A stretch of DNA of 64,000 nt from Candidatus Woesearchaeota archaeon (GTDB lineage: Archaea; Nanobdellota; Nanobdellia; Woesearchaeales; JAGVYF01). Below the pieces are notes generated by a model, which had not been told where the DNA came from, ran no database searches, and saw only the letters and a program-made list of their open reading frames with translations. Position numbers and translations under genes: made by a program. The stretch lies in assembly GCA_041650315.1 (NCBI GenBank), contig JBAZLJ010000001.1, positions 141,237 to 205,236 on the forward strand. The letters run 5' to 3'. Shown here one piece after another: positions 6,105 to 42,304 of this stretch; position 1 is the stretch's first letter, and every line of letters begins with the position of its first letter.

Positions 6105-7931
6105 TTGATTCAAATGGAATTAGACTACAAAAAATTAGGATTGAAAGTCGGGCTTGAGATACATCAACAGCTTGATACGCACAAGCTTTTTTGTAGCTGT
6201 CCTTCTGAATTACGCGAGGATAAGCCGGACATAATCGTACGGCGCAAAATCCGCGCAGCCGCCGGCGAGTCTGGTAAGGTCGACATCGCCGCTGAGATGG
6301 AAAAAGATAAGGACATTACTTTTGTATATGAAGCATATTCTGATACTAATTGCCTTGTTGAGCTTGATGAAGAGCCGCCGCATGATATGAATAAAGAGGC
6401 TCTTAATATTGCTTTACAAGTAGCTAAGATGCTGAATGCTCACGTTGTCGATGAGATACAAGTAATGAGGAAGACAATTGCGAATGGTTCTGTCACTTCC
6501 GGATTCCAGCGTACTTCTCTTGTTGCAACTGGTGGGCATATGAAATTTGATTTCGGTTCTGTGGGCGTTCCTACTATAATGGTAGAAGAAGATGCTGCCA
6601 AAGAAGTGTCAAGCACTCCTGATGTCGTCACTTGGCGTCTTGATCGTCTTGGAATTCCATTAATCGAATTAGCCACCACTCCTGACATACATACTCCTGA
6701 GCAAGCTAAAGAAGTTGCTGCTTATATCGGCATGGTCCTTCGTAGCACTGGCAAAGTAAAGCACGGGCTTGGCACTATCCGTCAGGACTTGAACGTAAAT
6801 ATCGAAGGCGCGCAACGTGTTGAATTGAAAGGTGCGCAAGATTTGAAGATGTTGCCGAAAATTGTAGAACTAGAAGTTGTGCGTCAGAAGAATTTGCTGG
6901 ATGTGGCTAAAAAGGTGCATAAGGATATCAAGATTGGTGCTGTTGTTGATGTAACTTCATTTTTTAAATCGTCCGAATCAAAAGTTGTTAAGTCTGCGCT
7001 TGATAATTCAGGCGTTGTTCTTGCGGTGAAATTACCTAAATTGCATGGTCTGCTTGGTCTTGAGATACAGCCTGGCCGTCGCGTCGGTACGGAGCTATCG
7101 GATTGGGCTAAGGCTCGGGCAGGCGTCGGCGGGATATTCCACTCAGATGAGCTTCCGAAGTATGGCATTACTGCATTGGATGTTGAGAATCTGCGCAACA
7201 AATTGGAATGTTCCAAAGAAGATGCTTTCGTCATGATTGCGGATACTGCTGATAAAAGCCAGAAGGCTTTGCACGGCGTTATTGATCGCGCTAAAATGCT
7301 AGAACGCGGGATTGTGAAAGAAGTGCGTAAGGTCAATGCGGACGGCACTTCAAGTTTCATGAGGCTCATGCCTGGCGCTGCGCGTATGTATCCAGAGACT
7401 GATGTTCTTAGCGTTCGTCCTGTTCTTTCGGGCATTGAAACTGCTGAGCTTATTTCAGATAAATCTTTGCGTTTCGAGAAGAAATATGGGCTTGGTAAGG
7501 ATCTTGCTGAGCTTGCTGCTAAGTCTGAGCTTTCTGATACTTATGAAGATTATTGCCGTAAGTTTGTGAATGTTAAACCTGCTTTTATCGCTGAGATTTT
7601 GTTAGGTTCTGTCAAGACTGTGCGTAGCATGTTCGGCGTTGATATTTCTCCAAGTGTTGAAGATTTCCATCTGTTATTCGAATCGCTTGATTCCGGCCTT
7701 ATTGCAAAGGATTCTGTGCTTGAGATATTGAAATTGAACAAACCTGTCAAGTCAGTGATAGATGATTTCAAGATGATGTCTGACGTTGAATTACGCAAAG
7801 AGCTAGAAGCGATTGTTGCGCATAATAAAGCTCTTCCATTCAATGCATTGATTGGCAAAGCCATGGGTAAGCTTAAAGGTAAGGCTGATGGTAAGAAGAT
7901 AGTTGATTTCTTGAAAGAAATGTGCCATTAA
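6105..7931 (+). CDS. gatE: Glutamyl-tRNA(Gln) amidotransferase subunit E
   Basis: 608 aa; N-terminus MELDYKKLGLKVGLEIHQQLDTHKLFCSCP is the characteristic GatE/GatB motif. Confidence 0.9.
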   Translation: MIQMELDYKKLGLKVGLEIHQQLDTHKLFCSCPSELREDKPDIIVRRKIRAAAGESGKVDIAAEMEKDKDITFVYEAYSDTNCLVELDEEPPHDMNKEALNIALQVAKMLNAHVVDEIQVMRKTIANGSVTSGFQRTSLVATGGHMKFDFGSVGVPTIMVEEDAAKEVSSTPDVVTWRLDRLGIPLIELATTPDIHTPEQAKEVAAYIGMVLRSTGKVKHGLGTIRQDLNVNIEGAQRVELKGAQDLKMLPKIVELEVVRQKNLLDVAKKVHKDIKIGAVVDVTSFFKSSESKVVKSALDNSGVVLAVKLPKLHGLLGLEIQPGRRVGTELSDWAKARAGVGGIFHSDELPKYGITALDVENLRNKLECSKEDAFVMIADTADKSQKALHGVIDRAKMLERGIVKEVRKVNADGTSSFMRLMPGAARMYPETDVLSVRPVLSGIETAELISDKSLRFEKKYGLGKDLAELAAKSELSDTYEDYCRKFVNVKPAFIAEILLGSVKTVRSMFGVDISPSVEDFHLLFESLDSGLIAKDSVLEILKLNKPVKSVIDDFKMMSDVELRKELEAIVAHNKALPFNALIGKAMGKLKGKADGKKIVDFLKEMCH

Positions 7932-8085
7932 TTGTTTCTTAGCTGTTTGTGATTGACATTCATATCATTTCAGAGCATATTTATTAAGATGTTGATGGTT
8001 TCAAATCAGTGTTCTGAAGTATATATTTTACTAAATATCTTTTGAAGAAACATTAATATACTAGTTTTACTATATAATTATACAA

Positions 8086-8130
8086 GGAGTGATAGGTAAT
8101 ATGGTTAAGCTACCTATGCAGTATCACTCC
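8086..8130. promoter_or_regulatory. Nested palindrome (candidate operator) overlapping the RHH gene promoter
   Basis: ggagtgata(8086-8094)/tatcactcc(8122-8130) 9-bp inverted repeat enclosing the inner aggta/tacct pair; TATA-like tatataat at ~8072-8079 just upstream. Confidence 0.45.
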
Positions 8131-8150
8131 TGTAAAGTGTTGACCCTTGA

Positions 8151-8336
8151 TTGGTTCAACAGGGTGATCCCATGCTATATGTAAACGTTCCGTTACCAAA
8201 ACCATTGGTGGACAAGATCGATCAGATTATAGCAGACGAGTCTAACAGCTTCAGGAGCAGACCCGATTTTATTCTGCAACACATCAGAGATGTAGTTGAC
8301 AAAGAGATTGAAAAGAAAAAGTTATTGCCTGAATGA
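8151..8336 (+). CDS. Ribbon-helix-helix (CopG/Arc/MetJ-like) DNA-binding protein
   Basis: 61 aa; MLYVNVPLPKPLVDKIDQIIA has a beta-strand then helix pattern typical of RHH; palindromic operator immediately upstream. Confidence 0.5.
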   Translation: MVQQGDPMLYVNVPLPKPLVDKIDQIIADESNSFRSRPDFILQHIRDVVDKEIEKKKLLPE

Positions 8337-8462
8337 GAATATATCTCATAGGTTCCTATTTTTACTATACAGCATAATCTATTATTATCCAATATATCCT
8401 TTATGGATTAGTAAAGTATTTAAAATTAAGATGTCAGAAAATTGACAGGGAGGTTGGGGTAA

Positions 8463-11312
8463 ATGGCTGAAAAGAAAAAGAAGGATAGGAAGTCTGCTAA
8501 CTCACCGGCAACATTGATAGATATTATTGAAAAAGAGAGTTTAACTGCAAAATCACAATTTAATTCTACTGCATCTGAAGGTGAACAAGTTTCTTTAGAG
8601 CAAAGAGCGACGACTTCTATATTAGAGATAGGTGACCTGGCCATAGGCACGAAAGTATTCAACCCCGACATATTGAAAGGATTAGGCTATTTCCTTGAAT
8701 CAAATGGTTATGATAAAAAAATAAAGCAAGTGATTATCGCTGGTGGTCTGAAACCGGCTATTCCTTTATTCTGGTCAGTACGTTATGGAGATTTGATGAG
8801 ATTTTTAGGCAATGATCCCGAAAGGAATGATTATGGTGAAGTCGGACGTGTCATTGAAGAATGCAAGGATCTTGTAGACGAGCTTAAGAAGTATGCTGAA
8901 AAATATTGGAAAGGAAAAGTATCCACCCCAAAAGAAGCAGAAGATATGGTCCAGAGGTATATGACTGAATTCTTCAATAAGTTGCCTGGCGCAAGAATCG
9001 ATTACTATCATGGTGATGAAGACAAGCTAAATATGAGAATGGCTGAAGAGATGGAAAGGCAGCGTATGCATGAGCAGAGAAAAGCAGAAGCTGAAGCTCA
9101 AAAAGAAAAAATTAGCCAAATGAAAGGAACATTAGATGATCTTGTTTCATCGAATACAGAATTGGAAAGAGAGAAGTTATATCATGCGCAGCTCAAGACT
9201 GTGCTTTCAGGAATATCTGTTGGATTGCAAGGACTCAATGATGATTCACAGAAGAAAGATTATATCATGAAATGGTTGAAGACTCCTGCTAATCGTAGCA
9301 CTATTCCACACGGCGAGAAAGGCAATGTGGAAGATATGCTCAATCTAACTCATCATACTGTGGATGAAGTGCAAGCGCAGATGGCAGAGCAGATTGTTGA
9401 AATTGATAAGCGTCTTATGGAGATAGACGCTGAAGCTGTCGCTAATACTGATGCGATGAATAAAGGTCAAGCTGAGATTGCTGATCTTGAAGCGAGGAAA
9501 GCTTCATTGGAAAGACCTTTGGAGAAGTTAGCGCATCTTACTGGGCAGTATTCAACCGCGCCTGGGGAAGAAGAGTTTATTTTCAAAATGGTAAAAGATG
9601 CATATAACGGCAGGCTTTATGACTTGTTCCAAGGATTGAATTTCCACGTGCACACTAGTTCAAAAGCAGATGTTGAGCTTGATTCCGGCGTAAGCACCAA
9701 GGCAAAAATTGCTGGCGAAGATGTAGGCAAAGCCGGACAGATTTATGAGATGGACGGAGAATTTAGCGCTCACGAGGTCGAATGCGGCGGTCAGAAATTG
9801 CTTATCGCAGTCATGCACAATATGAATCGTTCCAGCAATAGCGCTGGTTTGAATGATATTGAATTGATAGCTTTGGAGAATTCTTATCTTGAGAAAATGG
9901 CTGCTAATTACAAATCAAAGATGGGCAAAGTCCCAGACATATTCATAACTCAGCATGGCGCTGGCGGACTTAGGGTAAAAGCATTACCCAAGAAAAGAGA
10001 TGAAGTCAGCGAAGTCGGCTCGACAGAACGCGCGCCTATTCCTGAGATATGTATGGCAGTCAAGATTCCAGGTCTTGAAGACCTAGTTAAATTGCAGATT
10101 ATGAGGGACAAAGGTTTGAAAACACCTTCTACAATCAGGCAATCTAAAAAATTGAATGCTTCTGGCGCAACTATCCATACAGTGTTGGAAGATGGTTCGC
10201 ATGTAATCGAATATGTTGATTCAAGCTATCTTGCTGAAATCGGAGAATCTCTGACTCAGTTGGAAGGCATGGATAAGAAATCTGAAGAGTATAAGACATT
10301 GAAACAATCGCTTGATTCAAAAGTTTTGTTATCTAAACAGACTATTCGTAAGTCTTTGATTGCAGGAGATCTGCACGTAGGTGCGGGTAATCTGCCTGAC
10401 AAACCTTCTAATTACGAATATCTTGAGATGATGAAAAATTATGTTTTGTTGAATTATGTCTGGACTCAGAATGATCGTGCAGCATTGAGCGAAGTTATTA
10501 ATGGGGATCTTCCAAACATTCAAAGCCATTATAGTGAATGGGGCGATACTCCTGCAGCATTCGAACAGAAGCTTCAGAAAACTCTTGATGAAAGGATGGC
10601 TGCGATGGATGATTTATCTGTGAATAAGCAGAATAAAGGATTGAAAGAATTAGTGCATGATATCGCTAAAGAAGCAATCGATGCTTATAGAACAAGACCT
10701 ATCGCAAGCATAAGTCTGCAGATGGATGAAGCTGTCGCTCGTTTGAAACAGATATTCACTGACGTCCTTGGCGCAGGCGGAGAGCTTGTATTCGTTTCTG
10801 GAAATCACCCTAACAAGATTCCGGGCTATGATGAAGCAAAAGAACTTCGACGTGCGGTTCTTGGTTTGCAAGAGCAATACAAGGATCAAGTCAGGATTGT
10901 TGAAGGGCAAAGTTCAGGTCTTGGCGGTTCAGGCGTCATCAAAGACAAAGATGGCAAGAAAACATACTTCTGTCACGTACCACCAAGAGGCGGAAAAGAT
11001 TCAGTAGTCTCTTCAATGAAGAAAGCTCTTGGAACGGCTAATGATGCAGGACAATTCGTGCTATATCATGTCCATCAAGGAGAATGCGGTTATGCAGATG
11101 GCACAGCATATACAATCCCTCCTGGATTGCAAAATGCTTTGTATCCTGATGTGGCGGGTTATTTCTCAACCATACCTGGTTTCATGATGCATTATGGGTT
11201 GGTCGGAGAGAATACCGGCGTATATCACGCATGGCATTTCGTGCTAGGCAATACTTTGTTAAAGCATTATCCTGAGAATATCGCGAATGTGGGTTCTTCG
11301 AAACCCAATTAA
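8463..11312 (+). CDS. 949-aa protein: Lys-rich N-terminus, long central coiled-coil, C-terminal calcineurin-like metallophosphoesterase-like domain
   Basis: SD-like GGGAGG 8 nt upstream. Coiled-coil heptads ~aa 190-350 (EEMERQRMHEQRKAEAEAQKEK...). C-terminal motifs IAGDLHVGAGN (GDxHG-like), VINGDLPN (GD), VSGNHPNK (GNH), LYHVHQGE (HxH) appear in the order expected for an MPP fold. Confidence 0.6.
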   Translation: MAEKKKKDRKSANSPATLIDIIEKESLTAKSQFNSTASEGEQVSLEQRATTSILEIGDLAIGTKVFNPDILKGLGYFLESNGYDKKIKQVIIAGGLKPAIPLFWSVRYGDLMRFLGNDPERNDYGEVGRVIEECKDLVDELKKYAEKYWKGKVSTPKEAEDMVQRYMTEFFNKLPGARIDYYHGDEDKLNMRMAEEMERQRMHEQRKAEAEAQKEKISQMKGTLDDLVSSNTELEREKLYHAQLKTVLSGISVGLQGLNDDSQKKDYIMKWLKTPANRSTIPHGEKGNVEDMLNLTHHTVDEVQAQMAEQIVEIDKRLMEIDAEAVANTDAMNKGQAEIADLEARKASLERPLEKLAHLTGQYSTAPGEEEFIFKMVKDAYNGRLYDLFQGLNFHVHTSSKADVELDSGVSTKAKIAGEDVGKAGQIYEMDGEFSAHEVECGGQKLLIAVMHNMNRSSNSAGLNDIELIALENSYLEKMAANYKSKMGKVPDIFITQHGAGGLRVKALPKKRDEVSEVGSTERAPIPEICMAVKIPGLEDLVKLQIMRDKGLKTPSTIRQSKKLNASGATIHTVLEDGSHVIEYVDSSYLAEIGESLTQLEGMDKKSEEYKTLKQSLDSKVLLSKQTIRKSLIAGDLHVGAGNLPDKPSNYEYLEMMKNYVLLNYVWTQNDRAALSEVINGDLPNIQSHYSEWGDTPAAFEQKLQKTLDERMAAMDDLSVNKQNKGLKELVHDIAKEAIDAYRTRPIASISLQMDEAVARLKQIFTDVLGAGGELVFVSGNHPNKIPGYDEAKELRRAVLGLQEQYKDQVRIVEGQSSGLGGSGVIKDKDGKKTYFCHVPPRGGKDSVVSSMKKALGTANDAGQFVLYHVHQGECGYADGTAYTIPPGLQNALYPDVAGYFSTIPGFMMHYGLVGENTGVYHAWHFVLGNTLLKHYPENIANVGSSKPN

Positions 11313-11372
11313 TTTTATTTTTTGTCTCTTTTTTATATATGTTTTTATAGGTGGGATGCCTAGCAATATTGC

Positions 11373-12530
11373 ATGAATCTGGAAAAGAGGATAGGTTCTT
11401 GCGTAAAATCTCTTGCTCTAGGTCTTGCTGTGTCTTTAGGAAGTATTTTTTATCCGGTTGATTCTCGTGCGGACGATGTTAAATCAGTTTCACCAGCTGT
11501 TACAACTACTGCTAATCAGAATGTTGAGCGATTGAATAGAATGGATATAGATAAGATTGAAGAGTTCGCCGCGGGAATAAAATATGTTCCGTTTGATAGA
11601 TGTCGACGTATTAAATTAGAATCAGATAAGATAGAGGATTCTAGAATTAAGGAATTGGAAGAGATATTGCGAATGTCTTATCTTTATACTGAGAAAACAA
11701 GTAATAATTATATTTTAAAAGATAAACAAAGATTCACAAAATTGATATATGATACTTCTAAAAAAATAGGTTATAAGAATTTTGATAAGATGTCTATAGC
11801 TGAATTCATCAGATGGAACGCAAATCTTGTGATGTATTGGCATTCTTATTATAATGAGATGTTGAAATCTCCTGAAATAGCTGCTAAAGTTGATGGGGCT
11901 CATTTAGACGAGCTGTTGTATGCCGTTAACGGCAAAAAGGGAAAGACTTTTTTGATCTGTCGGAATATAAGTCCTTTACTTCAGATGGTTTTTGATTGCA
12001 CTAAGGATATTAATCCAAATCTTAAGAATACTTATTGTATATCTGTGGTTAATCAGACGCATATGTGGAATCTTTTTGTAACATTGACTAAAAAAGGACC
12101 TTATGCGGTTTCTATAGATCCAACTTTAGGGGATAATACTATGGCACATATGCAAAGTCAATTAGATTTTTCTAGCGGCGCTCATCGTGAGTTATTGCGA
12201 GACAAAGGTTATGTGCATTTATTAGCTGCTAAAATCTATTGTAATGAAAATGGTTTAATTGAATTATTGAAACGTTTAGAATTACATCAAGATTTTACTG
12301 ATAAAAATAAAATAGAATTGAATCGTTTCAGAACAAGTTCGCAGAATTATCTTCTGGCGCAATCTTTGAATCGGACTAATGAGATTATACAATTTTTCCC
12401 GCAATTATATAAATCTCGTATTCCTTCGATAGATAAATACATAAAATCTAATTTTGATATGATTCATTATAAGGTGGTAAGTAATTTAATTACTTTAGCG
12501 AAAACTCAGAAAGAGGTTTTATTCTTTTAA
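11373..12530 (+). CDS. Secreted hypothetical protein with a signal peptide
   Basis: 385 aa; N-terminus MNLEKRIGSCVKSLALGLAVSLGSIFYPVDSRADD; AT-rich gene. Confidence 0.55.
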   Translation: MNLEKRIGSCVKSLALGLAVSLGSIFYPVDSRADDVKSVSPAVTTTANQNVERLNRMDIDKIEEFAAGIKYVPFDRCRRIKLESDKIEDSRIKELEEILRMSYLYTEKTSNNYILKDKQRFTKLIYDTSKKIGYKNFDKMSIAEFIRWNANLVMYWHSYYNEMLKSPEIAAKVDGAHLDELLYAVNGKKGKTFLICRNISPLLQMVFDCTKDINPNLKNTYCISVVNQTHMWNLFVTLTKKGPYAVSIDPTLGDNTMAHMQSQLDFSSGAHRELLRDKGYVHLLAAKIYCNENGLIELLKRLELHQDFTDKNKIELNRFRTSSQNYLLAQSLNRTNEIIQFFPQLYKSRIPSIDKYIKSNFDMIHYKVVSNLITLAKTQKEVLFF

Positions 12531-12540
12531 TATAATTTCA

Positions 12541-12562
12541 ATCAAGGGTTTCGTTCCTTGAT
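12541..12562. terminator. Hairpin between convergent genes (candidate bidirectional terminator)
   Basis: atcaagg-gtttcgtt-ccttgat, a perfect 7-bp stem. Confidence 0.4.
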
Positions 12563-12609
12563 CCCGAACTCAAGTATTATTTCGCTTTGCTCAATAATAC
12601 GACAGAAAT

Positions 12610-14337
12610 CTATTCTTTAAGAATTATCTCGATCATCGCTGCGTAAGCAGGTCTTGCTATAAATACGCCGAATGATGCGCCGAGAATTGTTGTTATCGCA
12701 AAGCCTTTAAGCATACCTGCGCCAGCGAACATCAATGGTAGCATCGCAACAGTCAATGTCAGATACGAACCCATAATTATGCTGAAGCTTTCTTTGATGC
12801 GCTCTTTCCAAGTCGCTGTTTGTTTCGCTGCATCACCATACAAGACTTGATCAGTTATAACAATAAGGTTATCAACACCTGTACCTATTGCAATCAGGAT
12901 ACCTGCGATTGCTGCTAGATCAATATTCCAGCCAATCAATGCGGCCATACCAAGCAATAAGATTGTTTCTGCAATTAACGTGCATACAATTGGCGTGATA
13001 ATTTTCGCTTTTCTGTACCAGAATCCAATCAATAGACTGACTGCTATTATAACTAATATGCCTATTTCCAACGAATTATTAACGAATTCTTTACCCAATG
13101 TAGGCGAGATAGCTTCAACATTTGTCATTTCTAATTTTATAGGTAAGCTGCCTGTTTTCAATACAGTCTGAAGCTTTTTCATCTGTTCCAATGCATTGGA
13201 CATTGCTTCCTGCTGTGTTCTTCCAGAACCTGCGCCAGTTATTTGGATATCAGTAGTCGCTCTTCCTTTCAGGTCTGCAGCAATTCTTAATTCATCGACT
13301 TTAGAATCGTCTAAATATAGTTCTAATGATTTGGATAGATATTCTTGATTGTTTTCTGCAACTATGTCTAGTTTATCTGTAACTCTCGCTTGCCTCTCTG
13401 CTGCTTCCGGAGTCATGGCTATGCTGAATCTGAATCTGCAAACTGCTTCTCCTGCGCTTACTTGCTGGCAGCCATATTGCGGATCAATGCCAGAGCATGT
13501 TGCATCCCTGCATACGAATGTGATATCTCTACCGCCTATGAATACAGTTTCGTCGCCTACTTTAGCTTCGAATTTGCCTTGCTTAGACAATAGTTCTGTA
13601 ACTTCGCTTTTTGAAGCGCCAGCTATTTCGATAAGGACATATTGTTTTCCTGAACCGCCTAGATATGTTGGAAGATCGTTAGCTTGCGTTACAACTATAT
13701 CACTTAGGCCATATACATTCAATCTTTGTTTGAGATTGTCAATCAATAAAGTCATGTTGTCTGCTGATAATTGGTATTCTGGGGCTAGCAATACTCTGGT
13801 GCCGCCTTGAAGATCGAGACCTTTTTTGATATTGTTTGTTGGCGCGTTATATATTTCTATACCCAGTTCTTTAGGGCCGAGAATCTCAGTTTTAATTTTG
13901 TTTACATAAATAGTCTTTGTGACATTGCTTGTCACATTGGTTATATCATCAGTGACTGTTTCAGTCACTTCTTTAGCTTCCAGTTCTGGAAGGATGGTGG
14001 TTTTTATATTTGGTTGAACGATAAGGTAATATGTTTTGAGATTTGTTGTTATCTTTGCGCTTGTGTTTATCGCTAATGCGCTAACAATTGCATTATATTC
14101 TTCTACATTAGCTATAGGTTTGCTGTTTATTTCAATAATTCTTTCTCTTGCCATGGGCGCAATTGCAGGATTAGGATTAGCCATGCCTGCGAAATTCGCT
14201 GAGCTGTTTGCGGCAATGCTTCTAATGGCTACGCCTTCTCTGAACGGATCAGGATTAATTGATACTAACGCGAGTATGACTGCTATGATAAGGATTATCA
14301 CTCTTGCATTCTTGAATATCTGATTAAGCTTGGACAT
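12610..14337 (-). CDS. secD: Protein-export membrane protein SecD
   Basis: 575 aa; N-terminal TM, large periplasmic domain, C-terminal 6-TM region (GTGVDNLIVITDQV). Confidence 0.85.
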   Translation of the reverse strand: MSKLNQIFKNARVIILIIAVILALVSINPDPFREGVAIRSIAANSSANFAGMANPNPAIAPMARERIIEINSKPIANVEEYNAIVSALAINTSAKITTNLKTYYLIVQPNIKTTILPELEAKEVTETVTDDITNVTSNVTKTIYVNKIKTEILGPKELGIEIYNAPTNNIKKGLDLQGGTRVLLAPEYQLSADNMTLLIDNLKQRLNVYGLSDIVVTQANDLPTYLGGSGKQYVLIEIAGASKSEVTELLSKQGKFEAKVGDETVFIGGRDITFVCRDATCSGIDPQYGCQQVSAGEAVCRFRFSIAMTPEAAERQARVTDKLDIVAENNQEYLSKSLELYLDDSKVDELRIAADLKGRATTDIQITGAGSGRTQQEAMSNALEQMKKLQTVLKTGSLPIKLEMTNVEAISPTLGKEFVNNSLEIGILVIIAVSLLIGFWYRKAKIITPIVCTLIAETILLLGMAALIGWNIDLAAIAGILIAIGTGVDNLIVITDQVLYGDAAKQTATWKERIKESFSIIMGSYLTLTVAMLPLMFAGAGMLKGFAITTILGASFGVFIARPAYAAMIEIILKE

Positions 14338-15247
14338 TCTTCGCCTCTTTCTTCTTATCTGTCCATTCTAAATACCACATCATAATTCCTGCGTTCTGTA
14401 CCCAAGTCATAATCTGGTCTATTAATATTCCTATTAAGATGATTGTCAATATCTGTTGAATGTCCGGAGACATTGTCAATAATATGCCCATCGTGACTGC
14501 TACTAATGTAGTGCCATTCATCATGCAGCCTGTCTTGAATGCTCTGTAAACGTTATGCACTCTGTCTTCTTTTCTTGCTTTCAATAAATAAGTTGTGAGA
14601 AGGATGTCTGTATCGACTGAATAACCGATGAGCATGAGGAATGCTGCAATACCTGCAGTTGAGATCTTTATCCCTAAGAGGTTCGTGATTGCCATTGTCA
14701 CACTTACATCTGCGAATGCGCATAGTATAACTGCAACGCTAGGTATTGGAACTTTGAAGTATAAATAAACTACAAGAGCCATGAATAAGAACGCCAATAT
14801 CATTGATCTGAATGTTGCTTGGAAGAATGAACTTCCTAGTTGCGGGCTTATTGCCTGTGTGTTCTCTTCTAGTTGTTCTTGGGTTAAAGTCGGGACTGCT
14901 TTTAATAAAACTTCTTTGAATCTTTGGATTTCTTTTTGGTCATTTATATCAAGATCAATTTTGACCGCAAGTCCTAGTACTTGTCCGGATGATGATAATG
15001 TACGTACTTCGATATCAGATTTAGGGAATTCTTGTTTCAGGATTTCTGATATTCCGTTTTCATCTGCAGTAGGTTCTAATACTTTGATTGTAAGGCCGCC
15101 TTTTAGTGAAACGCCTTTTGTGAAAAAGTCTCCTGTAGTAGAATATTGGTAACCTAATTGCGCTAATCCTGCAATAAGAATCAACATAGAGAATATGATT
15201 AGGTACTTGTAATTCTTTGTGTATAAATCTGAAATATGTTGTGACAT
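14324..15247 (-). CDS. secF: Protein-export membrane protein SecF
   Basis: 307 aa; overlaps secD by 14 nt; SecD/F-type TM topology. Confidence 0.85.
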   Translation of the reverse strand: MSQHISDLYTKNYKYLIIFSMLILIAGLAQLGYQYSTTGDFFTKGVSLKGGLTIKVLEPTADENGISEILKQEFPKSDIEVRTLSSSGQVLGLAVKIDLDINDQKEIQRFKEVLLKAVPTLTQEQLEENTQAISPQLGSSFFQATFRSMILAFLFMALVVYLYFKVPIPSVAVILCAFADVSVTMAITNLLGIKISTAGIAAFLMLIGYSVDTDILLTTYLLKARKEDRVHNVYRAFKTGCMMNGTTLVAVTMGILLTMSPDIQQILTIILIGILIDQIMTWVQNAGIMMWYLEWTDKKKEAKNVQA

Positions 15248-28680: not shown

Positions 28681-28708
28681 AATAGCCTTATTTATAAGGG
28701 TATCGCTC
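28681..28708. promoter_or_regulatory. Palindromic double TATA box (cctttataaata-gcct-tatttataaggg) followed by GGTATCG; promoter of the rio1 operon (leaderless) and possibly bidirectional
   Basis: TATA centred ~-27 from the rio1 ATG; the same TTTATAAAGGTATCG arrangement recurs at 34751-34769 and 55244-55262. Confidence 0.5.
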
Positions 28709-28769
28709 TATTTCATCTACTATATATTTCATATATAATAATCAGAAAGCTTTATAAATAACCCCTAGT

Positions 28770-28945: not shown

Positions 28946-29112
28946 TTCATTTCACATTCAACAAATCATATATCACACAAAACAAACGCAGAATAAGTTC
29001 AATTTCACAGATCATCACAAATCAAGAGTCAAAAGGGGTATCGGATAGCAATTAGGTAGTGCATGATTGTGTTAAAATACTTATTCTAGCAATCCATTCG
29101 GAGGCGATTAAA

Positions 29113-30471
29113 ATGGGAAAAATAAGCCCAGTATCAGCAAAATACATAATCAACGCATCAATCAACATTGATGGAGTAGTAGATAGGCCGGACGTAATCG
29201 GCGCAATATTCGGCCAGACTGAAGGCCTATTAGGCTCTGACTTAGAGTTAAGAGAGCTTCAAAGGTCAGGCAGAATCGGCAGGATAGAAGTAAACGTAGA
29301 CACAAAGACCGGAAAATCAGTAGGTAATATTGTAATTCCTTCTTCATTAGATAAAGCGGAGACTGCAATCGTTGGAGCATCTTTAGAGATAATCCAAAGG
29401 ATTGGTCCATGTAATGCTAAAATCTTAGTAGCTAACATAGAAGATGTCAGGATCTCAAAACGTTCATTCGTTGTTGAAAGAGCTAAAGAGCTTTTGAAAA
29501 CTTTGATGGATAATGTGATGCCAGATTCACAGGAATTGGCAGAAGAAGTAGCTCATTCCGTAAGAGTAACCGAAATTGGTGAATACGGAAAAGATAAACT
29601 TCCATGCGGTCCTTCAATCGAAGATTCTGATGAAGTCATAGTTGTAGAAGGTCGTGCGGATGTATTGACATTATTGAAACATGGTTTCAAGAACTGCATC
29701 GCATTGAACGGAAATTCAATTCCAGAGACTATAATCGAGCTTTCGAAGAAGAAAGTCTTGACAGCTTTCGTTGATGGAGACAGAGGCGGAGTATTAATCT
29801 TGAGAGAATTGTTCGCTCAGGTTGATCTAGATTTCGTGACCAGAGCTCCAGACGGAAAAGAAGTTGAAGAATTGGCTAAGAAAGAATTGCATAAAGCGCT
29901 TAGGTCAAGAGTATCTGTAGAACAAGCTAAAGTAGAGGTCGAGAAATTGCTCTCTATCGAAGGCAAAAGAAATTCACAGAACTTGTACACCGGCGTTATG
30001 CAGAGAAGGCCGCAAACAAGTGCAACACCTTCCTCAAGGCCAGTATCTAGTACTTCTTCAAGCCCTAGCTCAAGCATGAGTTCAAGTTCCAGCTCTAGTT
30101 TCCAGAGATCAGCGCCTGTATCAAGGCCAATCTCAGCTAGTGCTCCAATGAGCGTATCTGCGCCTAAAACAGTGATAACTGCTGAAGAAAAGCAGAAATT
30201 CAAGGAAATGCTTGAATCATTGATAGGCACAAGAGGCGGATATATCTTGAACAAGGAATTGACCATACTGGGTAAAGTGCCAGTATCTGAGTTGATGCCA
30301 ACATTGAAGAGCTTGAATACTGCAGTATATGCTGTTGTGTTCGACGGCGCGATTGACAAGGTTCTTGCTAACGTAAGCGAGAAGATTCCAGTGACCCATA
30401 TTGTCGCTATGCATTCGACCGTGAAACCAAGCGAGACTTCAGTGAACGTTTTCACAATCAATGACTTATAG
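29113..30471 (+). CDS. dnaG: Archaeal DnaG primase-like protein (Toprim; exosome-associated) with a Ser-rich low-complexity insertion
   Basis: Start chosen at MGKISPV (SD GGAGG 9 nt upstream; the ORF track starts at 29059). VIGAIFGQTEGLLG N-terminus, Toprim EGRADVLTLLKHGFKNCIALNG. Ser-rich stretch ~nt 30000-30160. Confidence 0.85.
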   Translation: MGKISPVSAKYIINASINIDGVVDRPDVIGAIFGQTEGLLGSDLELRELQRSGRIGRIEVNVDTKTGKSVGNIVIPSSLDKAETAIVGASLEIIQRIGPCNAKILVANIEDVRISKRSFVVERAKELLKTLMDNVMPDSQELAEEVAHSVRVTEIGEYGKDKLPCGPSIEDSDEVIVVEGRADVLTLLKHGFKNCIALNGNSIPETIIELSKKKVLTAFVDGDRGGVLILRELFAQVDLDFVTRAPDGKEVEELAKKELHKALRSRVSVEQAKVEVEKLLSIEGKRNSQNLYTGVMQRRPQTSATPSSRPVSSTSSSPSSSMSSSSSSSFQRSAPVSRPISASAPMSVSAPKTVITAEEKQKFKEMLESLIGTRGGYILNKELTILGKVPVSELMPTLKSLNTAVYAVVFDGAIDKVLANVSEKIPVTHIVAMHSTVKPSETSVNVFTINDL

Positions 30472-31369: not shown

Positions 31370-32710
31370 TCAGAAATTGATTTTCTCGTCTTTGACGTTA
31401 CGTTTCTCAGGCGTTCCGGATAATGCGCTTGGCGCTTCTCCGCCGTGCCATGTGAATCTCGGACGGATCATGACTTGATACAATCTTTCGTTCTCGTCAT
31501 CTAGAATCACGGCTGAACCTTTTGATCTCGGCAAATTCTCAAACTGTTGGCCGAGATTCTCTCTCATATAGGATTGCGTCAGCATGCCCAATGCATCAAC
31601 ATCAAGTCTTGCGGTTATCCTGTGGCTGATGACGACATCAGATTGTGTCATAACATCAGTATGAATTTTACCGGGCTGTTGACTTGCCAGAACTAATGAA
31701 ATGCCTGGCTGCCTGCCTTCTCTTAGGATAGTGATCAATGCATCTGTCGCAGTAGTCTTGCCTACATTTGGGAGGAATTCATGCGCTTCATCGATTATGA
31801 GCCAGACCAATGGATTCTGTTCTTCAGCTGCAATTTCTCTGAAATAATGCTCAGATTCTTGGATTGCTTTGAATTCTTCATTTTTTCTGGCTGCCATTCT
31901 CTCAATGAATAGCTTTTGAGCAACAAGACCAATTACCAATGATTTAATTTCCCAGCCGTTTGGCGCTGTCGCATAACAACTAACATCTATGATGCTGACT
32001 TTTCCGCCAATGACTAAATCTTTGAATGGAGTTCCTTCAGGGCTGAACAAGCCCCACATGTCCGCATTCTTGAAATGGTTTATTGCTGCTTGTATCACAT
32101 GCGGTTCATTGGATTTATCTTCTTGAAATTTCTGGATGATATCGTGTATAGAATAATTCTCTTTTTCGATTAAAAGGTCATTAAGTATGGTTTCGATGAG
32201 TATTGCGATTGGATCATTACTCGCCAGTTTGAATGTCAGTATCCAATCCTGCGCAGTTAAATCGCTCGGCCTTATCGCGTAGGGGAAATCTGTTGGTATG
32301 CCTTTCTCTTTGTATTCTTTGTAGTATCCGATTGGCGTGAATATCTGTACGTCAAGAGCTTTGCCTTCAAGATTCCACTCTTTGAGCATTGCCTCATCTT
32401 TATGATTAGGATATTTCATGGTCCAGTAAACGCCCATTGTATCTAAAATTACACAGCTGAGATTTTTGGATATATCAGAATCGAGTCCAGTGATGCCTTC
32501 GGCGATGACACCCATTGTATATGATTTACCACCGCCTCTTTTTCCGCAGACGAATACAACGTGCGATCTCGCTACATCTAAGTAAAGATTGTTTGCCAAT
32601 GAAGTAATTTGGCCCATATGCACGAATTGCCTGGCTAGAAAGACTGTTCCTGACTTGCCATATTTTTCTATGTCGGATTTCTTCCTGCCTATGATTATGT
32701 CGTAGACCAT
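31370..32710 (-). CDS. FtsK/HerA-superfamily P-loop ATPase (DUF87/HerA-like)
   Basis: 446 aa; Walker A GKRGGGKSYTMGVI, Walker B LIIDEAHEFLP; no NurA partner nearby. Confidence 0.7.
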   Translation of the reverse strand: MVYDIIIGRKKSDIEKYGKSGTVFLARQFVHMGQITSLANNLYLDVARSHVVFVCGKRGGGKSYTMGVIAEGITGLDSDISKNLSCVILDTMGVYWTMKYPNHKDEAMLKEWNLEGKALDVQIFTPIGYYKEYKEKGIPTDFPYAIRPSDLTAQDWILTFKLASNDPIAILIETILNDLLIEKENYSIHDIIQKFQEDKSNEPHVIQAAINHFKNADMWGLFSPEGTPFKDLVIGGKVSIIDVSCYATAPNGWEIKSLVIGLVAQKLFIERMAARKNEEFKAIQESEHYFREIAAEEQNPLVWLIIDEAHEFLPNVGKTTATDALITILREGRQPGISLVLASQQPGKIHTDVMTQSDVVISHRITARLDVDALGMLTQSYMRENLGQQFENLPRSKGSAVILDDENERLYQVMIRPRFTWHGGEAPSALSGTPEKRNVKDEKINF

Positions 32711-41089: not shown

Positions 41090-42304
41090 ATGAAAGTACC
41101 TAAACTATTGGCAGTATTATCGATTCTTATAGTCATTTTCAGTTCTGGATGCACAAGTTCCACAACACCTAATCTCGATGAAGAGATATATAGGGGCACT
41201 AGAGCATTGACAATGAATTTTTTGCAGGATGTGCCGCCTACTGAGACTTTTGCTAGCACAGGTGATGAGTATGAGATGGCTATCGAATTGAAGAATGAAG
41301 GCACTTATCCAGTATACGGCAAGATTTATTTCTCAGGTTTTGATCCTAACATAATCAGTTTCTCTAAACTAGGAATGGATCAAGGTTATTCTTTCCCATC
41401 ATCAAATTGCGGTTTTAAAGAGATAATTCCAAGATCTAAATTGAATCCTCCTGGCGGAGCTTGCGTTGAAGAATTCAAAGGCAAACTTAATCTTGATTCA
41501 ATCACTGATTCATATTCAGCGAATATTTTCGCTCAGGCAGTCTATAAATATATAACAGATGCTAGCATTGTCATGTGCGTAGATCCTGACGTGTATCACG
41601 TATCACCTGCGCAAAGAGCTTGCACAATGAGCGCGTTCTCATCAGGTTCCGGACAAGGGGCGCCTCTCGGAATTACTAAGATAGAACCGACTGCCATAGG
41701 TGGCGGCCAGATACTTTATAGAATTTATATCCAGAACATGGGCGAAGGAGAAGTTGTCGACTATATGAAAGCGCCTTATGAGCTGAAACCTAGCGATGTA
41801 GGTAAAGTTAGATACAGAATAGGAACGCCTGCGAATACAAGAACGGGTATTACGGTATCTGCTAACGGTGGATCAGTGTTTGTAGGCAATGCAATTGCTG
41901 ATATAACTGGCAGAGCTATCGGATTGTCTTATACTGATTCTAATTTCAGGATAAATTTCAATCCTAAGTCAAACTATGCATATTCTGAGGATGTAATCAG
42001 ATTGAACAACGGCCAAGGAGTAATCACTAAGGTCATCGATTACAGCGGAAATGCTTATGCATTCCAGACTCCTCTGCAGATAACATTGGAATATGGATAT
42101 ATGCATGCGGTCCAGAAGAATATAGAGATAGTCAATATCGATCAATATAATTCTGCATACGGCGCCGGTGGTATCAGATTCGTTTATGATAAGAACGGCA
42201 AGAGAGTAGAATTGAATCCAGACGGCTCTGTGAGATATAGGGATGATGATTTCCAGATAGATCTCCCTTCAGATACATTGGATCTGAATAATCTTTTCAA
42301 ATAA
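41090..42304 (+). CDS. Secreted lipobox-type protein, paralog 2 of 3
   Basis: 404 aa; SP ...VIFSSGCTSS; motif CTMSAFSSGSGQGAPLGITKIE...ILYRIYIQNMGEGEV. Confidence 0.6.
   Translation: MKVPKLLAVLSILIVIFSSGCTSSTTPNLDEEIYRGTRALTMNFLQDVPPTETFASTGDEYEMAIELKNEGTYPVYGKIYFSGFDPNIISFSKLGMDQGYSFPSSNCGFKEIIPRSKLNPPGGACVEEFKGKLNLDSITDSYSANIFAQAVYKYITDASIVMCVDPDVYHVSPAQRACTMSAFSSGSGQGAPLGITKIEPTAIGGGQILYRIYIQNMGEGEVVDYMKAPYELKPSDVGKVRYRIGTPANTRTGITVSANGGSVFVGNAIADITGRAIGLSYTDSNFRINFNPKSNYAYSEDVIRLNNGQGVITKVIDYSGNAYAFQTPLQITLEYGYMHAVQKNIEIVNIDQYNSAYGAGGIRFVYDKNGKRVELNPDGSVRYRDDDFQIDLPSDTLDLNNLFK

What the first reader, a model, noticed from the sequence alone, without database searches (positions are those of the whole stretch)
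8060..12530. RHH repressor with palindromic operator followed by a 949-aa coiled-coil + metallophosphoesterase fusion protein and a secreted protein
The 61-aa RHH (CopG-like) gene sits directly behind a nested palindrome (GGAGTGATA...TATCACTCC with inner AGGTA/TACCT) that overlaps the predicted TATA/TSS region, a classic autoregulated operator layout. The next gene, 125 nt downstream, encodes a 949-aa protein with a Lys-rich N-terminus, ~150 aa of coiled coil, and a C-terminal region carrying MPP-type motifs in canonical order (GDLHVG, INGDLPN, GNHPN, YHVHQGE). Known archaeal MPPs such as Mre11 or the PolD small subunit do not have this architecture: their phosphoesterase domain is not C-terminal to a long coiled coil. 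A signal-peptide protein follows. The block lies between housekeeping gatE and secD and is AT-richer, so it has accessory-island character. The coiled-coil plus nuclease/phosphatase architecture is reminiscent of defence or DNA-processing proteins.
Basis: partly seen in the sequence, partly recalled or inferred. Interest (0 to 1): 0.65.

Follow-up and report, generated by a model that had tools for sequence, protein, structure and literature searches.

The report
Uncharacterised two-lobed DPANN metallophosphoesterase
A 949-residue protein of a tiny symbiotic archaeon (Woesearchaeota) belongs to a rare family annotated only as hypothetical, which joins a degenerate and an intact metallophosphoesterase lobe with a long coiled-coil arm; it is probably a nucleic-acid-cutting enzyme, and it is a conserved chromosomal gene rather than a mobile defence island.

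Summary
The three ORFs and the palindrome are real. The "accessory island / defence" reading is not supported. The window comes from a Candidatus Woesearchaeota MAG. Two relatives with ~70% identical housekeeping genes keep the same order: gatE, RHH, large protein, secreted protein, secD. The large gene's GC (0.41) is not below the window's (0.39).

Pfam, NCBIfam, PDB sequences and a word-indexed search of 5.8 billion proteins gave no hit. An exhaustive HMMER search found 78 representatives, mostly 800-1000 aa. The four that carry a source name are DPANN archaea, all labelled "hypothetical".

The N-terminal lobe has the same secondary-structure order but degenerate motifs. It carries a ~180-residue antiparallel coiled-coil arm. 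About a third of the family has an N-terminal winged-helix domain. This subclade instead has a separate, very conserved RHH gene behind a dyad element at its promoter.

Most likely it is a metal-dependent nuclease or phosphodiesterase. The substrate is unknown.

The parts
8050..8076 (+). Conserved promoter-like block ACATTAATATACTAGTTTTACTATATA, containing a TATA-like box (TTTTACTATATA, 8065-8076)
   Evidence: Nearly invariant in the three-way alignment with L004 and L001. The TATA-like word also occurs at 8026-8037. Promoter function is inferred, not shown.
8085..8131 (.). Dyad-symmetric element: outer arms 8085-8094 / 8122-8131 (10 nt, perfect) and inner arms 8093-8098 / 8111-8116. It overlaps the expected transcription start about 20-25 nt after the TATA-like box. 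Candidate RHH operator.
   Evidence: chance about 0.03 per spacer; 3 such repeats in 64 kb. The exact 9-mer occurs nowhere else in the window. Dyad symmetry is kept at the same position in L004 (z -4.3) and is weak in L001 (z -0.4).
8172..8336 (+). 54-aa ribbon-helix-helix-like protein. The listed ORF starts at TTG 8151; the likely start is ATG 8172, behind the Shine-Dalgarno-like GGTGATCC at 8163-8170.
   Evidence: It is 83-93% identical to the two syntenic homologs (alignment; BLASTP local 90-93%), which makes it the most conserved gene of the neighbourhood.
8359..8381 (+). Conserved intergenic element TTTTTACTATACAGCATAATCTA, about 80-100 nt upstream of the large gene. Possibly that gene's own TATA-like promoter.
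   Evidence: Present with few changes in the equivalent spacers of L004 and L001. Function is inferred only.
8463..11312 (+). 949-aa two-lobed metallophosphoesterase-family protein (deposited as MFA5141470.1, 'hypothetical protein'). Shine-Dalgarno GGAGGT at 8449-8454.
8598..9014 (+). N-lobe, first part (residues 46-184): strand-helix-strand-helices-strand with degenerate motifs. LEIGD58 stands in place of GDxH, AGG94-95 in place of GD, and HGDED187 in place of GNH[DE].
9015..9560 (+). Antiparallel coiled-coil arm (residues 185-366): helices 185-255 and 300-349 with a small, poorly conserved apex at 256-299. There is no CxxC hook.
   Evidence: pLDDT mostly 84-94. Searches give only coiled-coil-type matches (LmuB, prefoldin, Smc4). 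One search shows 11-34% identity between close relatives. One search finds no CxxC.
9561..10232 (+). N-lobe, second part (residues 367-590). It carries H452-N453 and H498-G-x-G-G at the positions of motifs IV and V, the family signature LPTxQS...NWHTKR...ASGAV, and a disordered loop at 407-438.
10338..11282 (+). C-lobe (residues 626-940): catalytically intact MPP domain. Conserved residues are D636, H638, E677, N781, H782, D790, E791, H838, H869 and H871. A three-helix insert lies at 697-770.
   Evidence: conservation in 39 sequences. Pfam Metallophos above cut-off in homologs P0010, P0020 and P0028, mapping to this lobe; structural matches.
11373..12530 (+). 385-aa AT-rich gene for a protein with a signal-peptide-like N-terminus. 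It is fast-evolving but syntenic, and has a conserved Cys...His...Asp pattern (ICRN, THMW, IDPT).
   Evidence: 30% and 27% identity to the syntenic genes of L004 and L001. No Pfam or PDB match. The transglutaminase-like reading is by eye only.

Best explanation
This is a vertically inherited chromosomal gene pair, plus a downstream secreted-protein gene, in a Woesearchaeota (DPANN) genome.

The 949-aa protein belongs to a rare family for which I found no functional annotation. It is built from two metallophosphoesterase-type lobes.

- C-terminal lobe. It keeps all metal-ligand positions: D636 and H638 (motif I), E677 (II), N781 with H782 (III), H838 (IV), H869 and H871 (V). It is predicted to bind two metal ions and hydrolyse phosphoester bonds.
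- N-terminal lobe. It has the same strand/helix order but has lost most ligands. Out of its third helix grows an antiparallel coiled-coil arm of about 180 residues, roughly 8-10 nm long.

I infer that the dead lobe serves as a built-in partner for the live one, in the way Mre11/SbcD work as dimers and DP1 docks on DP2. I infer that the arm serves for self-association or for reaching a partner or substrate.

The substrate is most likely nucleic acid, so the enzyme would be a nuclease or phosphodiesterase. Two observations point that way: the nearest structures are the PolD proofreading exonuclease DP1 and Mre11/SbcD, and about a third of family members carry an N-terminal winged-helix DNA-binding-type domain.

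In this subclade there is no winged helix. Instead a 54-aa RHH protein is encoded immediately upstream. It probably binds the dyad element over its own transcription start as an autorepressor. It may also act together with the enzyme.

Shown: the family, the motifs, the predicted fold, the synteny and the dyad. Inferred: catalysis, substrate, the roles of the arm and the dead lobe, and RHH-operator binding.
For: Family:
- Exhaustive phmmer found 78 representatives, 57 at E<=1e-10. Most are 800-1000 aa and align end to end.
- The four members with a source name are from Woesearchaeota, Aenigmatarchaeota and Nanoarchaeota MAGs. All are named 'hypothetical'.

Catalytic lobe:
- Conservation in 39 sequences: D636 38, H638 36, E/D677 39, N781 39, H782 39, H838 39, H/D869 39, H871 39.
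- Pfam Metallophos is above its gathering score in P0010 (23.9 bits, profile 4-190 of 191, residues 567-792 of 860), P0020 and P0028.

Structure:
- AlphaFold2 with a 72-sequence alignment gave pLDDT 88.8 and pTM 0.84.
- Every Foldseek PDB hit at E<=0.001 is an MPP, with DP1 best at 7.5e-5.

Two lobes:
- Element order is EHEHHHHEHEEEHEEEHHEE against EHEHHHEHHEEEHEEEHEE. Only 18 of 5000 shuffles match as well.
- Conserved residues sit at equivalent places.

DNA link:
- N-terminal extensions of about 100 aa occur in about a third of members. They hit winged-helix families: HTH_20 at 3.5e-6 and HTH_24 at 7.5e-5, both at their cut-offs, plus MarR, DnaD_N and MCM4_WHD below cut-off.

Vertical inheritance:
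- Same gene order in L001 and L004.
- Identities are 61-76% for flanking genes in L004 (46-71% in L001), about 90-93% for the RHH and 40-41% for the large protein.

Regulatory element.
Against: - The window protein itself matches no Pfam, NCBIfam or PDB sequence profile. The C-lobe family profile finds no solved MPP by sequence. The MPP assignment therefore rests on motifs, on three relatives and on a predicted structure.
- Similarity between the two lobes is not significant by sequence: BLASTP nothing, hhalign probability 2%, E 0.02. The N-lobe has no Pfam signal.
- Structural neighbours also include non-nuclease MPPs (Rv0805, GpdQ, Vps29, MJ0936) with similar scores, so the substrate is open.
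- No conserved partner gene and no DNA-repair or replication neighbourhood was found.
- The RHH's DNA-reading strand is invariant while the dyad arms differ between relatives and are weak in L001. That fits a simple operator only if a conserved subset of bases is read.
- Motif II has Glu instead of the usual Asp in most members.
Confidence: 0.55

Rival explanations
1. The enzyme is a phosphatase or phosphodiesterase for a non-polymeric substrate, such as cyclic or linear signalling nucleotides, phosphoproteins or phospholipid head groups. The winged-helix and RHH modules are then ordinary transcription regulators, fused or adjacent, and do not target the enzyme to DNA.
For: MPPs of this kind (Rv0805, GpdQ, MJ0936, 5'-nucleotidases, LpxH) score nearly as well as the nucleases. 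Neighbourhoods include NAD and nucleotide metabolism genes in some loci: NadA, NAD kinase and NUDIX in L013, NDK in L014. No repair or replication partner was found.
Against: The best structural matches are nucleases (DP1, Mre11, SbcD). A roughly 10-nm coiled-coil arm and a dead partner lobe are unusual for small-molecule MPPs. Winged-helix fusion to about a third of the members is more easily explained by work on DNA.
Confidence: 0.25
2. It is a very divergent PolD small-subunit (DP1) or B-subunit-like component of the replisome.
Against: The DP1 equivalog scores 10.8 bits against a cut-off of 445. No member matched a B-subunit Pfam family among those listed. DP1 has an OB domain inserted in the N-terminal part of its PDE domain (PMC6355029), whereas here the segments between the first three strands of the C-lobe are helical only. 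No DP2 gene lies nearby in any locus. PolD is reported as present in DPANN lineages (PMC6355029), so a canonical DP1 is expected elsewhere in the genome; I could not check this.
Confidence: 0.07
3. It is an anti-virus defence or accessory nuclease with an RHH regulator or antitoxin-like partner.
Against: The LmuB matches cover only the coiled coil, residues 203-357. Gene order is conserved between gatE and secD in relatives. GC is normal. The homolog loci examined lie among housekeeping genes and show no recognised defence-system neighbourhood, apart from one PIN-domain gene and a Schlafen/AlbA-like ATPase in L008. There are no viral-contig relatives and no PHROG match.
Confidence: 0.05
4. The dyad at 8085-8131 is not a protein operator. 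It is a transcribed 5'-UTR hairpin, or a chance feature.
For: It folds well as RNA (-21 kcal/mol, z -4.1). The arm sequences differ between relatives while pairing is kept in L004, as expected for an RNA stem. A 10-nt perfect repeat arises by chance in about 3% of such spacers.
Against: With the TATA-like box at 8065-8076, the expected start site falls inside the left arm or loop, so the full stem would not be transcribed (inference). Pairing is weak in L001. No Rfam family matches.
Confidence: 0.3

Closest known systems
PolD small subunit DP1 (Mre11-like proofreading exonuclease) and the eukaryotic polymerase B-subunits
   Different: There is no sequence-profile match: 10.8 bits against a cut-off of 445. 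No OB domain is evident inside the PDE lobe (compared with PMC6355029). The protein is twice the length, with a second MPP-like lobe and a coiled-coil arm. No DP2 gene lies nearby.
Mre11-Rad50 / SbcCD DNA-end-processing complexes
   Different: The arm here grows out of an MPP-like lobe, not an ABC ATPase. There is no Walker A motif and no CxxC zinc hook. There is no capping-domain or Rad50-binding match and no Rad50/SbcC gene nearby. Everything is in one polypeptide, and only one of the two MPP lobes looks active.
Small stand-alone MPP phosphodiesterases (MJ0936, Rv0805, GpdQ, YfcE, Vps29)
   Different: Those are single-domain proteins of 160-300 aa without a coiled coil, a dead partner lobe or a winged-helix fusion. 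Several act on small molecules.
Arc/MetJ/CopG/NikR-type ribbon-helix-helix repressors
   Same: The 54-aa protein aligns to the N-terminal strand-helix-helix of NikR. One homolog carries that label in JGI. The gene lies behind a dyad element at its own promoter, which is the usual autoregulatory layout.
   Different: All profile matches are below family cut-offs. Only three close relatives exist in 5.8 billion proteins. It is far more conserved (about 90-93%) than the DNA element it is supposed to read.

Membership tests
Metallophosphoesterase (calcineurin-like) superfamily | Five motifs in order, DxH / GD / GNH[DE] / H / GHxH, supplying the seven metal-ligand and catalytic residues | tested here: met
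   C-lobe: D636-x-H638, S-E677 (E 29, D 10 of 39), G780-N781-H782 (39 of 39), H838 (39 of 39), H869 (H 20, D 19), H871 (39 of 39). The variation is Glu for Asp in motif II.
Metallophosphoesterase (calcineurin-like) superfamily | Significant match to Pfam PF00149 Metallophos | tested here: inconclusive
   The window protein has no match even at E<=10. Homologs P0010 (23.9 bits), P0020 (22.8) and P0028 (26.0) exceed the 21.5-bit cut-off. In P0010 and P0020 the match covers almost the whole profile in the C-terminal lobe. The link is therefore transitive.
Metallophosphoesterase (calcineurin-like) superfamily | Two-sheet MPP sandwich fold | tested here: met
Metallophosphoesterase (calcineurin-like) superfamily | Metal-dependent phosphoester hydrolysis | not testable with these tools
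   Needs biochemistry.
PolD DP1 / polymerase B-subunit family | Match to the DP1 equivalog or B-subunit profile | tested here: not met
   NCBIfam PRK04036.1-3 scores 10.8 bits against a cut-off of 445, over residues 41-96 only. No B-subunit Pfam family appears among those listed for the 39 members.
PolD DP1 / polymerase B-subunit family | OB domain inserted in the N-terminal part of the PDE domain, forming the DP2 docking site (PMC6355029) | tested here: not met
Mre11 / SbcD nucleases | N-terminal MPP nuclease domain followed by a capping domain, and partnership with a Rad50/SbcC ATPase | tested here: not met
SMC / Rad50-type proteins | ABC ATPase head with Walker A and B motifs, split by a long antiparallel coiled coil with a hinge or zinc hook | tested here: not met
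   The antiparallel coiled coil split inside a head domain is present. There is no Walker A and no CxxC. SMC_prok_B scores 8.6 bits against a cut-off of 567.
Ribbon-helix-helix (Arc/MetJ/CopG) regulators | About 45-residue strand-helix-helix unit recognisable by profile | tested here: inconclusive
   NikR N-terminal domain profiles at E 0.017 and 0.02. PDB NikR 2bj1 at E 0.76, aligned over residues 4-43. HicB_lk_antitox at 0.053. PHROG 38461 at 1.3e-7 and a 'transcriptional repressor' PHROG at 0.028. JGI label on a 93% identical homolog.
Ribbon-helix-helix (Arc/MetJ/CopG) regulators | Sequence-specific binding to a repeated operator | not testable with these tools
   A candidate dyad is present and positionally conserved. 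Binding needs EMSA or footprinting.
Known anti-phage defence systems (PADLOC) | Match of the proteins to defence-system models and location in defence islands | tested here: not met
   The only match is LmuB at E 1e-4, over the coiled coil at residues 203-357. Neighbourhoods are housekeeping.

The most novel reading that the evidence does not exclude
The family is a single-polypeptide, ATP-independent counterpart of Mre11-Rad50/SbcCD, possibly restricted to DPANN archaea. One live and one dead MPP lobe would form a built-in pseudo-dimer. A Rad50-like coiled-coil arm growing from the dead lobe would let two molecules bridge or clamp DNA ends. Targeting would come from a fused winged helix or, in this subclade, from the separately encoded RHH protein.
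Probability: 0.15. Interest if true: 0.8.

Novelty: new variant of a known kind. Interest (0 to 1): 0.55.

Why it matters
DPANN archaea have very small genomes, so a roughly 950-residue protein kept across Woesearchaeota, Aenigmatarchaeota and Nanoarchaeota is likely to do something important. Yet every named copy I found is labelled 'hypothetical'. The family is missed by Pfam and NCBIfam, and the word-indexed homology search I ran did not retrieve it either.

The architecture I propose has no counterpart among solved or viral predicted structures. It has an SMC/Rad50-style coiled-coil arm growing out of a metallophosphoesterase lobe instead of an ATPase, and that lobe is paired with a second, active lobe.

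If it is a nuclease, it could be part of how these reduced symbionts repair, replicate or recycle DNA. It would also be a clean example of gene duplication giving an enzyme/pseudo-enzyme pair in one chain.

The case also shows that conserved families can escape word-indexed searches when a coiled coil swamps the candidate list.

Tried and rejected
1. Direct annotation. Pfam, NCBIfam, PHROGs, PADLOC and PDB sequence searches on the whole protein and on sub-fragments gave nothing beyond coiled-coil noise.

2. Word-indexed homology search. It found nothing with the single protein or with the 39-sequence alignment. The exhaustive HMMER search was what worked.

3. The search for related loci. Nothing with the protein in genome and viral contigs, or with gatE in genome contigs. 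This method needs exact 8-residue words.

4. Single-sequence AlphaFold. Useless at pLDDT 38.9.

5. AFDB50 fold search. The library was unavailable.

6. Proof of an internal duplication by sequence. BLASTP and hhalign were not significant, and there was no Pfam signal for the N-lobe. Only the topology argument holds.

7. C-lobe family profile against PDB sequences. No MPP hit.

8. OB-fold reading of residues 493-586, which would have made the C-terminal 450 residues DP1-like. I rejected it because the same strand-strand-strand-helix-strand-strand pattern occurs at the end of the C-lobe, where it is part of the MPP sandwich.

9. The 27-codon upstream ORF at 8101-8184 behind the SD-like left arm. 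I judged it chance, because the equivalent position in L004 is ATG followed directly by TAA.

10. The sigma-70 promoter and terminator scan is uninformative for an archaeon.

11. Literature searches for this architecture found no description.

12. Source names for ten more family members were all empty.

Full report
WHAT IS THERE

The window carries three + strand ORFs between gatE (6105-7931) and secD/secF (12610-15247, - strand). They lie at 8151-8336 (most likely starting at 8172), 8463-11312 (949 aa) and 11373-12530 (385 aa).

Upstream of the small ORF lies a perfect 10-nt inverted repeat, AGGAGTGATA 8085-8094 / TATCACTCCT 8122-8131. It has an inner 6-nt pair, TAGGTA 8093-8098 / TACCTA 8111-8116. 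A repeat that long, with a gap of at most 60 nt, arises in 2.5-2.9% of shuffled or first-order Markov copies of the 240-nt spacer. Only three exist in the whole 64 kb. The exact 9-mer occurs nowhere else in the window. The stretch folds far better than shuffles, with z -4.1 as RNA and -3.3 as DNA.

ORGANISM AND CONTEXT

The exact 949-aa sequence is deposited as MFA5141470.1, [quoted passage not shown]. It sits on a 1.007-Mb contig.

The surroundings are archaeal housekeeping genes:
- gatD, an MFS transporter and gatE on one side.
- secD, secF, a Na/Ca exchanger, an M50 peptidase, Nop5, fibrillarin, CysRS and IleRS on the other.
- Further along, Topo VI B, a DnaG-type Toprim protein, a HerA-like ATPase and aIF5B.

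GC is 0.412 for the large gene and 0.388 for the small one, against 0.386 for the window, 0.435 for gatE and 0.395 for secD. Only the 385-aa gene (0.318) and the spacers are AT-rich. The block is not compositionally foreign.

THE BLOCK IS VERTICALLY INHERITED

Two relatives have the same order: gatD (L004 only; the L001 contig starts within the MFS gene), MFS, gatE, a 54-aa gene, a 950-1000-aa gene, secreted-protein gene(s), secD, secF, M50, Nop5, fibrillarin. They are L001 (NCBI GCA_017973895.1) and L004 (JGI 3300063115).

Identity to the window:

| Gene | vs L004 | vs L001 |
|---|---|---|
| gatE | 76% | 71% |
| secD | 74% | 66% |
| fibrillarin | 71% | 71% |
| Nop5 | 64% | 67% |
| RHH | 93% | 90% |
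| large protein | 40% | 41% |
| 385-aa protein | 30% | 27% |

It removes the "accessory island" reading.

The large protein does evolve faster than its neighbours. Much of that comes from the coiled coil (11-34% identity). The globular parts are 45-57% identical.

FINDING THE FAMILY

Searches that found nothing:
- Pfam, NCBIfam, PHROGs, PADLOC and PDB sequence searches gave nothing but coiled-coil noise. PADLOC matched LmuB at E 1e-4 over residues 203-357 only.
- The word-indexed search of 5.8 billion proteins returned nothing, both with the protein and with an alignment.
- Pattern-based locus searches also failed.

The exhaustive phmmer search of 1.84 billion representatives found 78 proteins at E<=1e-3. 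Of these, 57 are at E<=1e-10 and 35 at E<=1e-30. Most are 800-1000 aa and align over the full length.

Clusters are tiny, with 1-3 members. The four that carry a source name come from Candidatus Woesearchaeota, Aenigmatarchaeota and Nanoarchaeota MAGs, and all are "hypothetical protein".

Six further loci of distant homologs all lie among archaeal housekeeping genes:
- an archaeal rRNA operon with RNase P RNA, HisRS and r-protein/EF-2/EF-1alpha operons;
- gyrB/gyrA;
- archease and ribosomal protein S7;
- FtsZ, NadA and NAD kinase;
- L7Ae, S28e, L24e and NDK;
- RtcB.

There is no recurrent partner gene, no recognised defence-system or defence-island neighbourhood, and no viral relatives.

THE C-TERMINAL LOBE IS A METALLOPHOSPHOESTERASE

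In a 39-sequence alignment, the canonical positions are conserved as follows:

| Residue | Motif | Conservation (of 39) |
|---|---|---|
| D636 | I | 38 |
| H638 | I | 36 |
| E677 | II | E 29, D 10 |
| G780-N781-H782 | III | 39 |
| H838 | IV | 39 |
| H869 | V | H 20, D 19 |
| H871 | V | 39 |

A family-specific D790-E791 pair is also nearly invariant.

D682 is not conserved, and the conserved acid is E677 in "SEVING". Members with "GD" at that position show the equivalence.

Three homologs exceed Pfam's Metallophos gathering score. In two of them the match spans almost the whole profile inside this lobe. By sequence the family is otherwise very remote, because its C-lobe profile finds no solved MPP.

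STRUCTURE

The single-sequence AlphaFold model was useless (pLDDT 38.9). With the 72-sequence family alignment, the model reached pLDDT 88.8 and pTM 0.84.

- Foldseek against the PDB gave only MPPs at E<=0.001: PolD DP1 at 7.5e-5, Vps29 and GpdQ, with Rv0805 next at about 1e-3 and SbcD at 0.015.
- The viral structure library gave only single-domain MPP matches with TMq <=0.22.

Nothing solved or in BFVD shares the whole architecture. AFDB50 was not available.

THE N-TERMINAL LOBE AND THE ARM

The model shows the following layout:
- strand 50-56, helix, strand 87-93, four helices, strand 178-182;
- two very long helices, 185-255 and 300-349, with a small apex at 256-299;
- after helix 367-388, a set of strands and helices up to residue 586.

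With the arm removed, the order of elements in the N-lobe is EHEHHHHEHEEEHEEEHHEE. In the C-lobe it is EHEHHHEHHEEEHEEEHEE. The alignment score is 33 of a possible 37, and only 18 of 5000 order-shuffles reach it.

Conserved N-lobe residues sit where the C-lobe has its motifs:

| N-lobe | Conservation | C-lobe equivalent |
|---|---|---|
| E/D58 | 36 of 39 | D636 |
| G94-G95 | 37 and 33 of 39 | S676-E677 |
| D187 | at least 90% | G780-N781-H782 |
| H452-N453 | 30 and 28 of 39 | H838 |
| H498-G-x-G-G | H498 34 of 39 | H869 / H871 |

Most metal ligands are gone, including the motif I His and the motif II acid.

I read this as a degenerate MPP copy whose third helix is extended into an antiparallel coiled-coil arm. 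This step is inferred, for three reasons:
- Sequence comparison of the two lobes is co-linear but not significant.
- The N-lobe has no Pfam signal.
- Coordinates were not exposed for a superposition.

The protein has no Walker A motif and no CxxC hook.

LINK TO DNA

About a third of the family has an N-terminal extension of about 100 residues. Several of these hit winged-helix families. HTH_20 (3.5e-6) and HTH_24 (7.5e-5) are at their cut-offs. MarR, HTH_DeoR, DnaD_N, MCM4_WHD and RPA_C are below theirs.

The window's subclade lacks this domain and has the separate RHH gene instead. The RHH has only three close relatives in the indexed collection, all in this subclade. One is labelled "Arc/MetJ-type ribbon-helix-helix transcriptional regulator" by JGI. 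Other members without a winged helix, such as P0005, have no RHH gene upstream. The RHH association is therefore specific to this lineage.

THE REGULATORY REGION

A block at 8050-8076, ACATTAATATACTAGTTTTACTATATA, is nearly invariant in the three genomes. The dyad follows directly after it. With a TATA-like box at 8065-8076, the start site is expected inside the left half of the dyad.

Dyad symmetry is kept in L004 with different arm bases (GAGGAATA / TATTCCTC plus CAGTATA / TATACTG; z -4.3). It is weak in L001 (z -0.4). The RHH's N-terminal strand is identical in all three. If it reads this element, it must use the conserved subset of bases. An RNA-hairpin reading is not excluded.

A second conserved element, TTTTTACTATACAGCATAATCTA (8359-8381), lies between the two genes in all three genomes. 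It may be the large gene's own promoter.

MECHANISM, AS FAR AS THE EVIDENCE GOES

- Likely (about 0.9): the C-lobe is a two-metal phosphoesterase.
- Plausible (about 0.6): the N-lobe is a dead duplicate that forms a fixed pseudo-dimer with it. The high pTM suggests a defined arrangement.
- Tentative (about 0.4): the substrate is nucleic acid. This rests on the nearest structural neighbours (DP1, Mre11, SbcD) and on the winged-helix fusions.

The arm may mediate self-association or reach, as in Rad50/SbcC, but here it grows from an MPP-like lobe instead of an ATPase.

Rivals are:
- a small-molecule or protein phosphatase with ordinary transcription-factor modules (0.25);
- a very divergent DP1/B-subunit-like replisome part (0.07), disfavoured because the DP1 profile and the OB-insert test fail (one search compared with PMC6355029);
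- a defence nuclease (0.05), disfavoured by synteny and context.

VERDICT

It is half wrong: there is no island and no defence link.

The family looks like a new architectural variant within a well-known enzyme superfamily. I found it only in DPANN archaea, it is rare in databases, and every named copy lacks a functional annotation. It deserves biochemical follow-up, but the present evidence does not fix its substrate or cellular role.

Noticed in passing
window 11373-12530 (+); L004 12939-14009; L001 7474-9111 and 6725-7477: The 385-aa downstream protein has a signal-peptide-like N-terminus. Its Cys (ICRN), His (THMW) and Asp (IDPT) pattern is conserved in both syntenic homologs, which looks transglutaminase- or papain-like by eye. 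No Pfam or PDB match exists for it. It is the fastest-evolving (27-30% identity) and most AT-rich (0.318) gene of the block. L001 has an extra 250-aa secreted neighbour with sub-threshold Transglut_core hits (E 0.0036).
   Followed up: partly
window 7974-7986 (+), in the gatE-RHH spacer: A second short element, GCATATTTATTAA, is almost invariant in the three related genomes, about 90 nt upstream of the TATA-like box. It could be another promoter or a binding site. No explanation was tested.
   Followed up: no
window 8359-8381 (+): A conserved 23-nt element (TTTTTACTATACAGCATAATCTA) lies between the RHH gene and the large gene in all three genomes. It resembles the upstream TATA-like word, which suggests the large gene has its own promoter rather than being only co-transcribed.
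   Followed up: partly
family members P0006, P0008/P0081, P0012, P0024, P0031, P0032, P0036, P0047 and others: About a third of the family carries an N-terminal winged helix-turn-helix domain of about 100 aa. The window's subclade lacks it and has the RHH gene instead. This may be domain replacement by a separate subunit.
   Followed up: partly
L005 3747-9774, upstream of the homolog gene at 10001-12730: In an Aenigmatarchaeota MAG, the homolog lies directly downstream of a tRNA, the 16S-23S rRNA operon and the RNase P RNA gene.
   Followed up: no
window 28688-28697 / 28752-28761 and 6125-6134 / 6187-6196: These are the only other perfect 10-nt inverted repeats (gap up to 60 nt) in the 64-kb window. 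One is in the spacer upstream of the DnaG-type Toprim gene (29059-30471). The other is inside the start of gatE.
   Followed up: no
window 37364-40057 (+), 41090-42304 (+), 48320-49693 (+): Other large ORFs have little or no annotation. An 897-aa protein has only a C-terminal '3D domain' hit, and two proteins of 404 and 457 aa have no Pfam match at E<=1e-4.
   Followed up: no
window 31370-32710 (-): A HerA-like ATPase (DUF87, E 9e-10) is encoded about 20 kb from the finding. Whether NurA, Mre11 or Rad50 accompany it was not examined. That would bear on the idea that the new family substitutes for Mre11-Rad50.
   Followed up: no
method (versus 36): The word-indexed search of 5.8 billion proteins missed the whole family, including the query's own cluster, although the exact sequence is in the collection. 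Only the exhaustive HMMER scan recovered it.
   Followed up: partly
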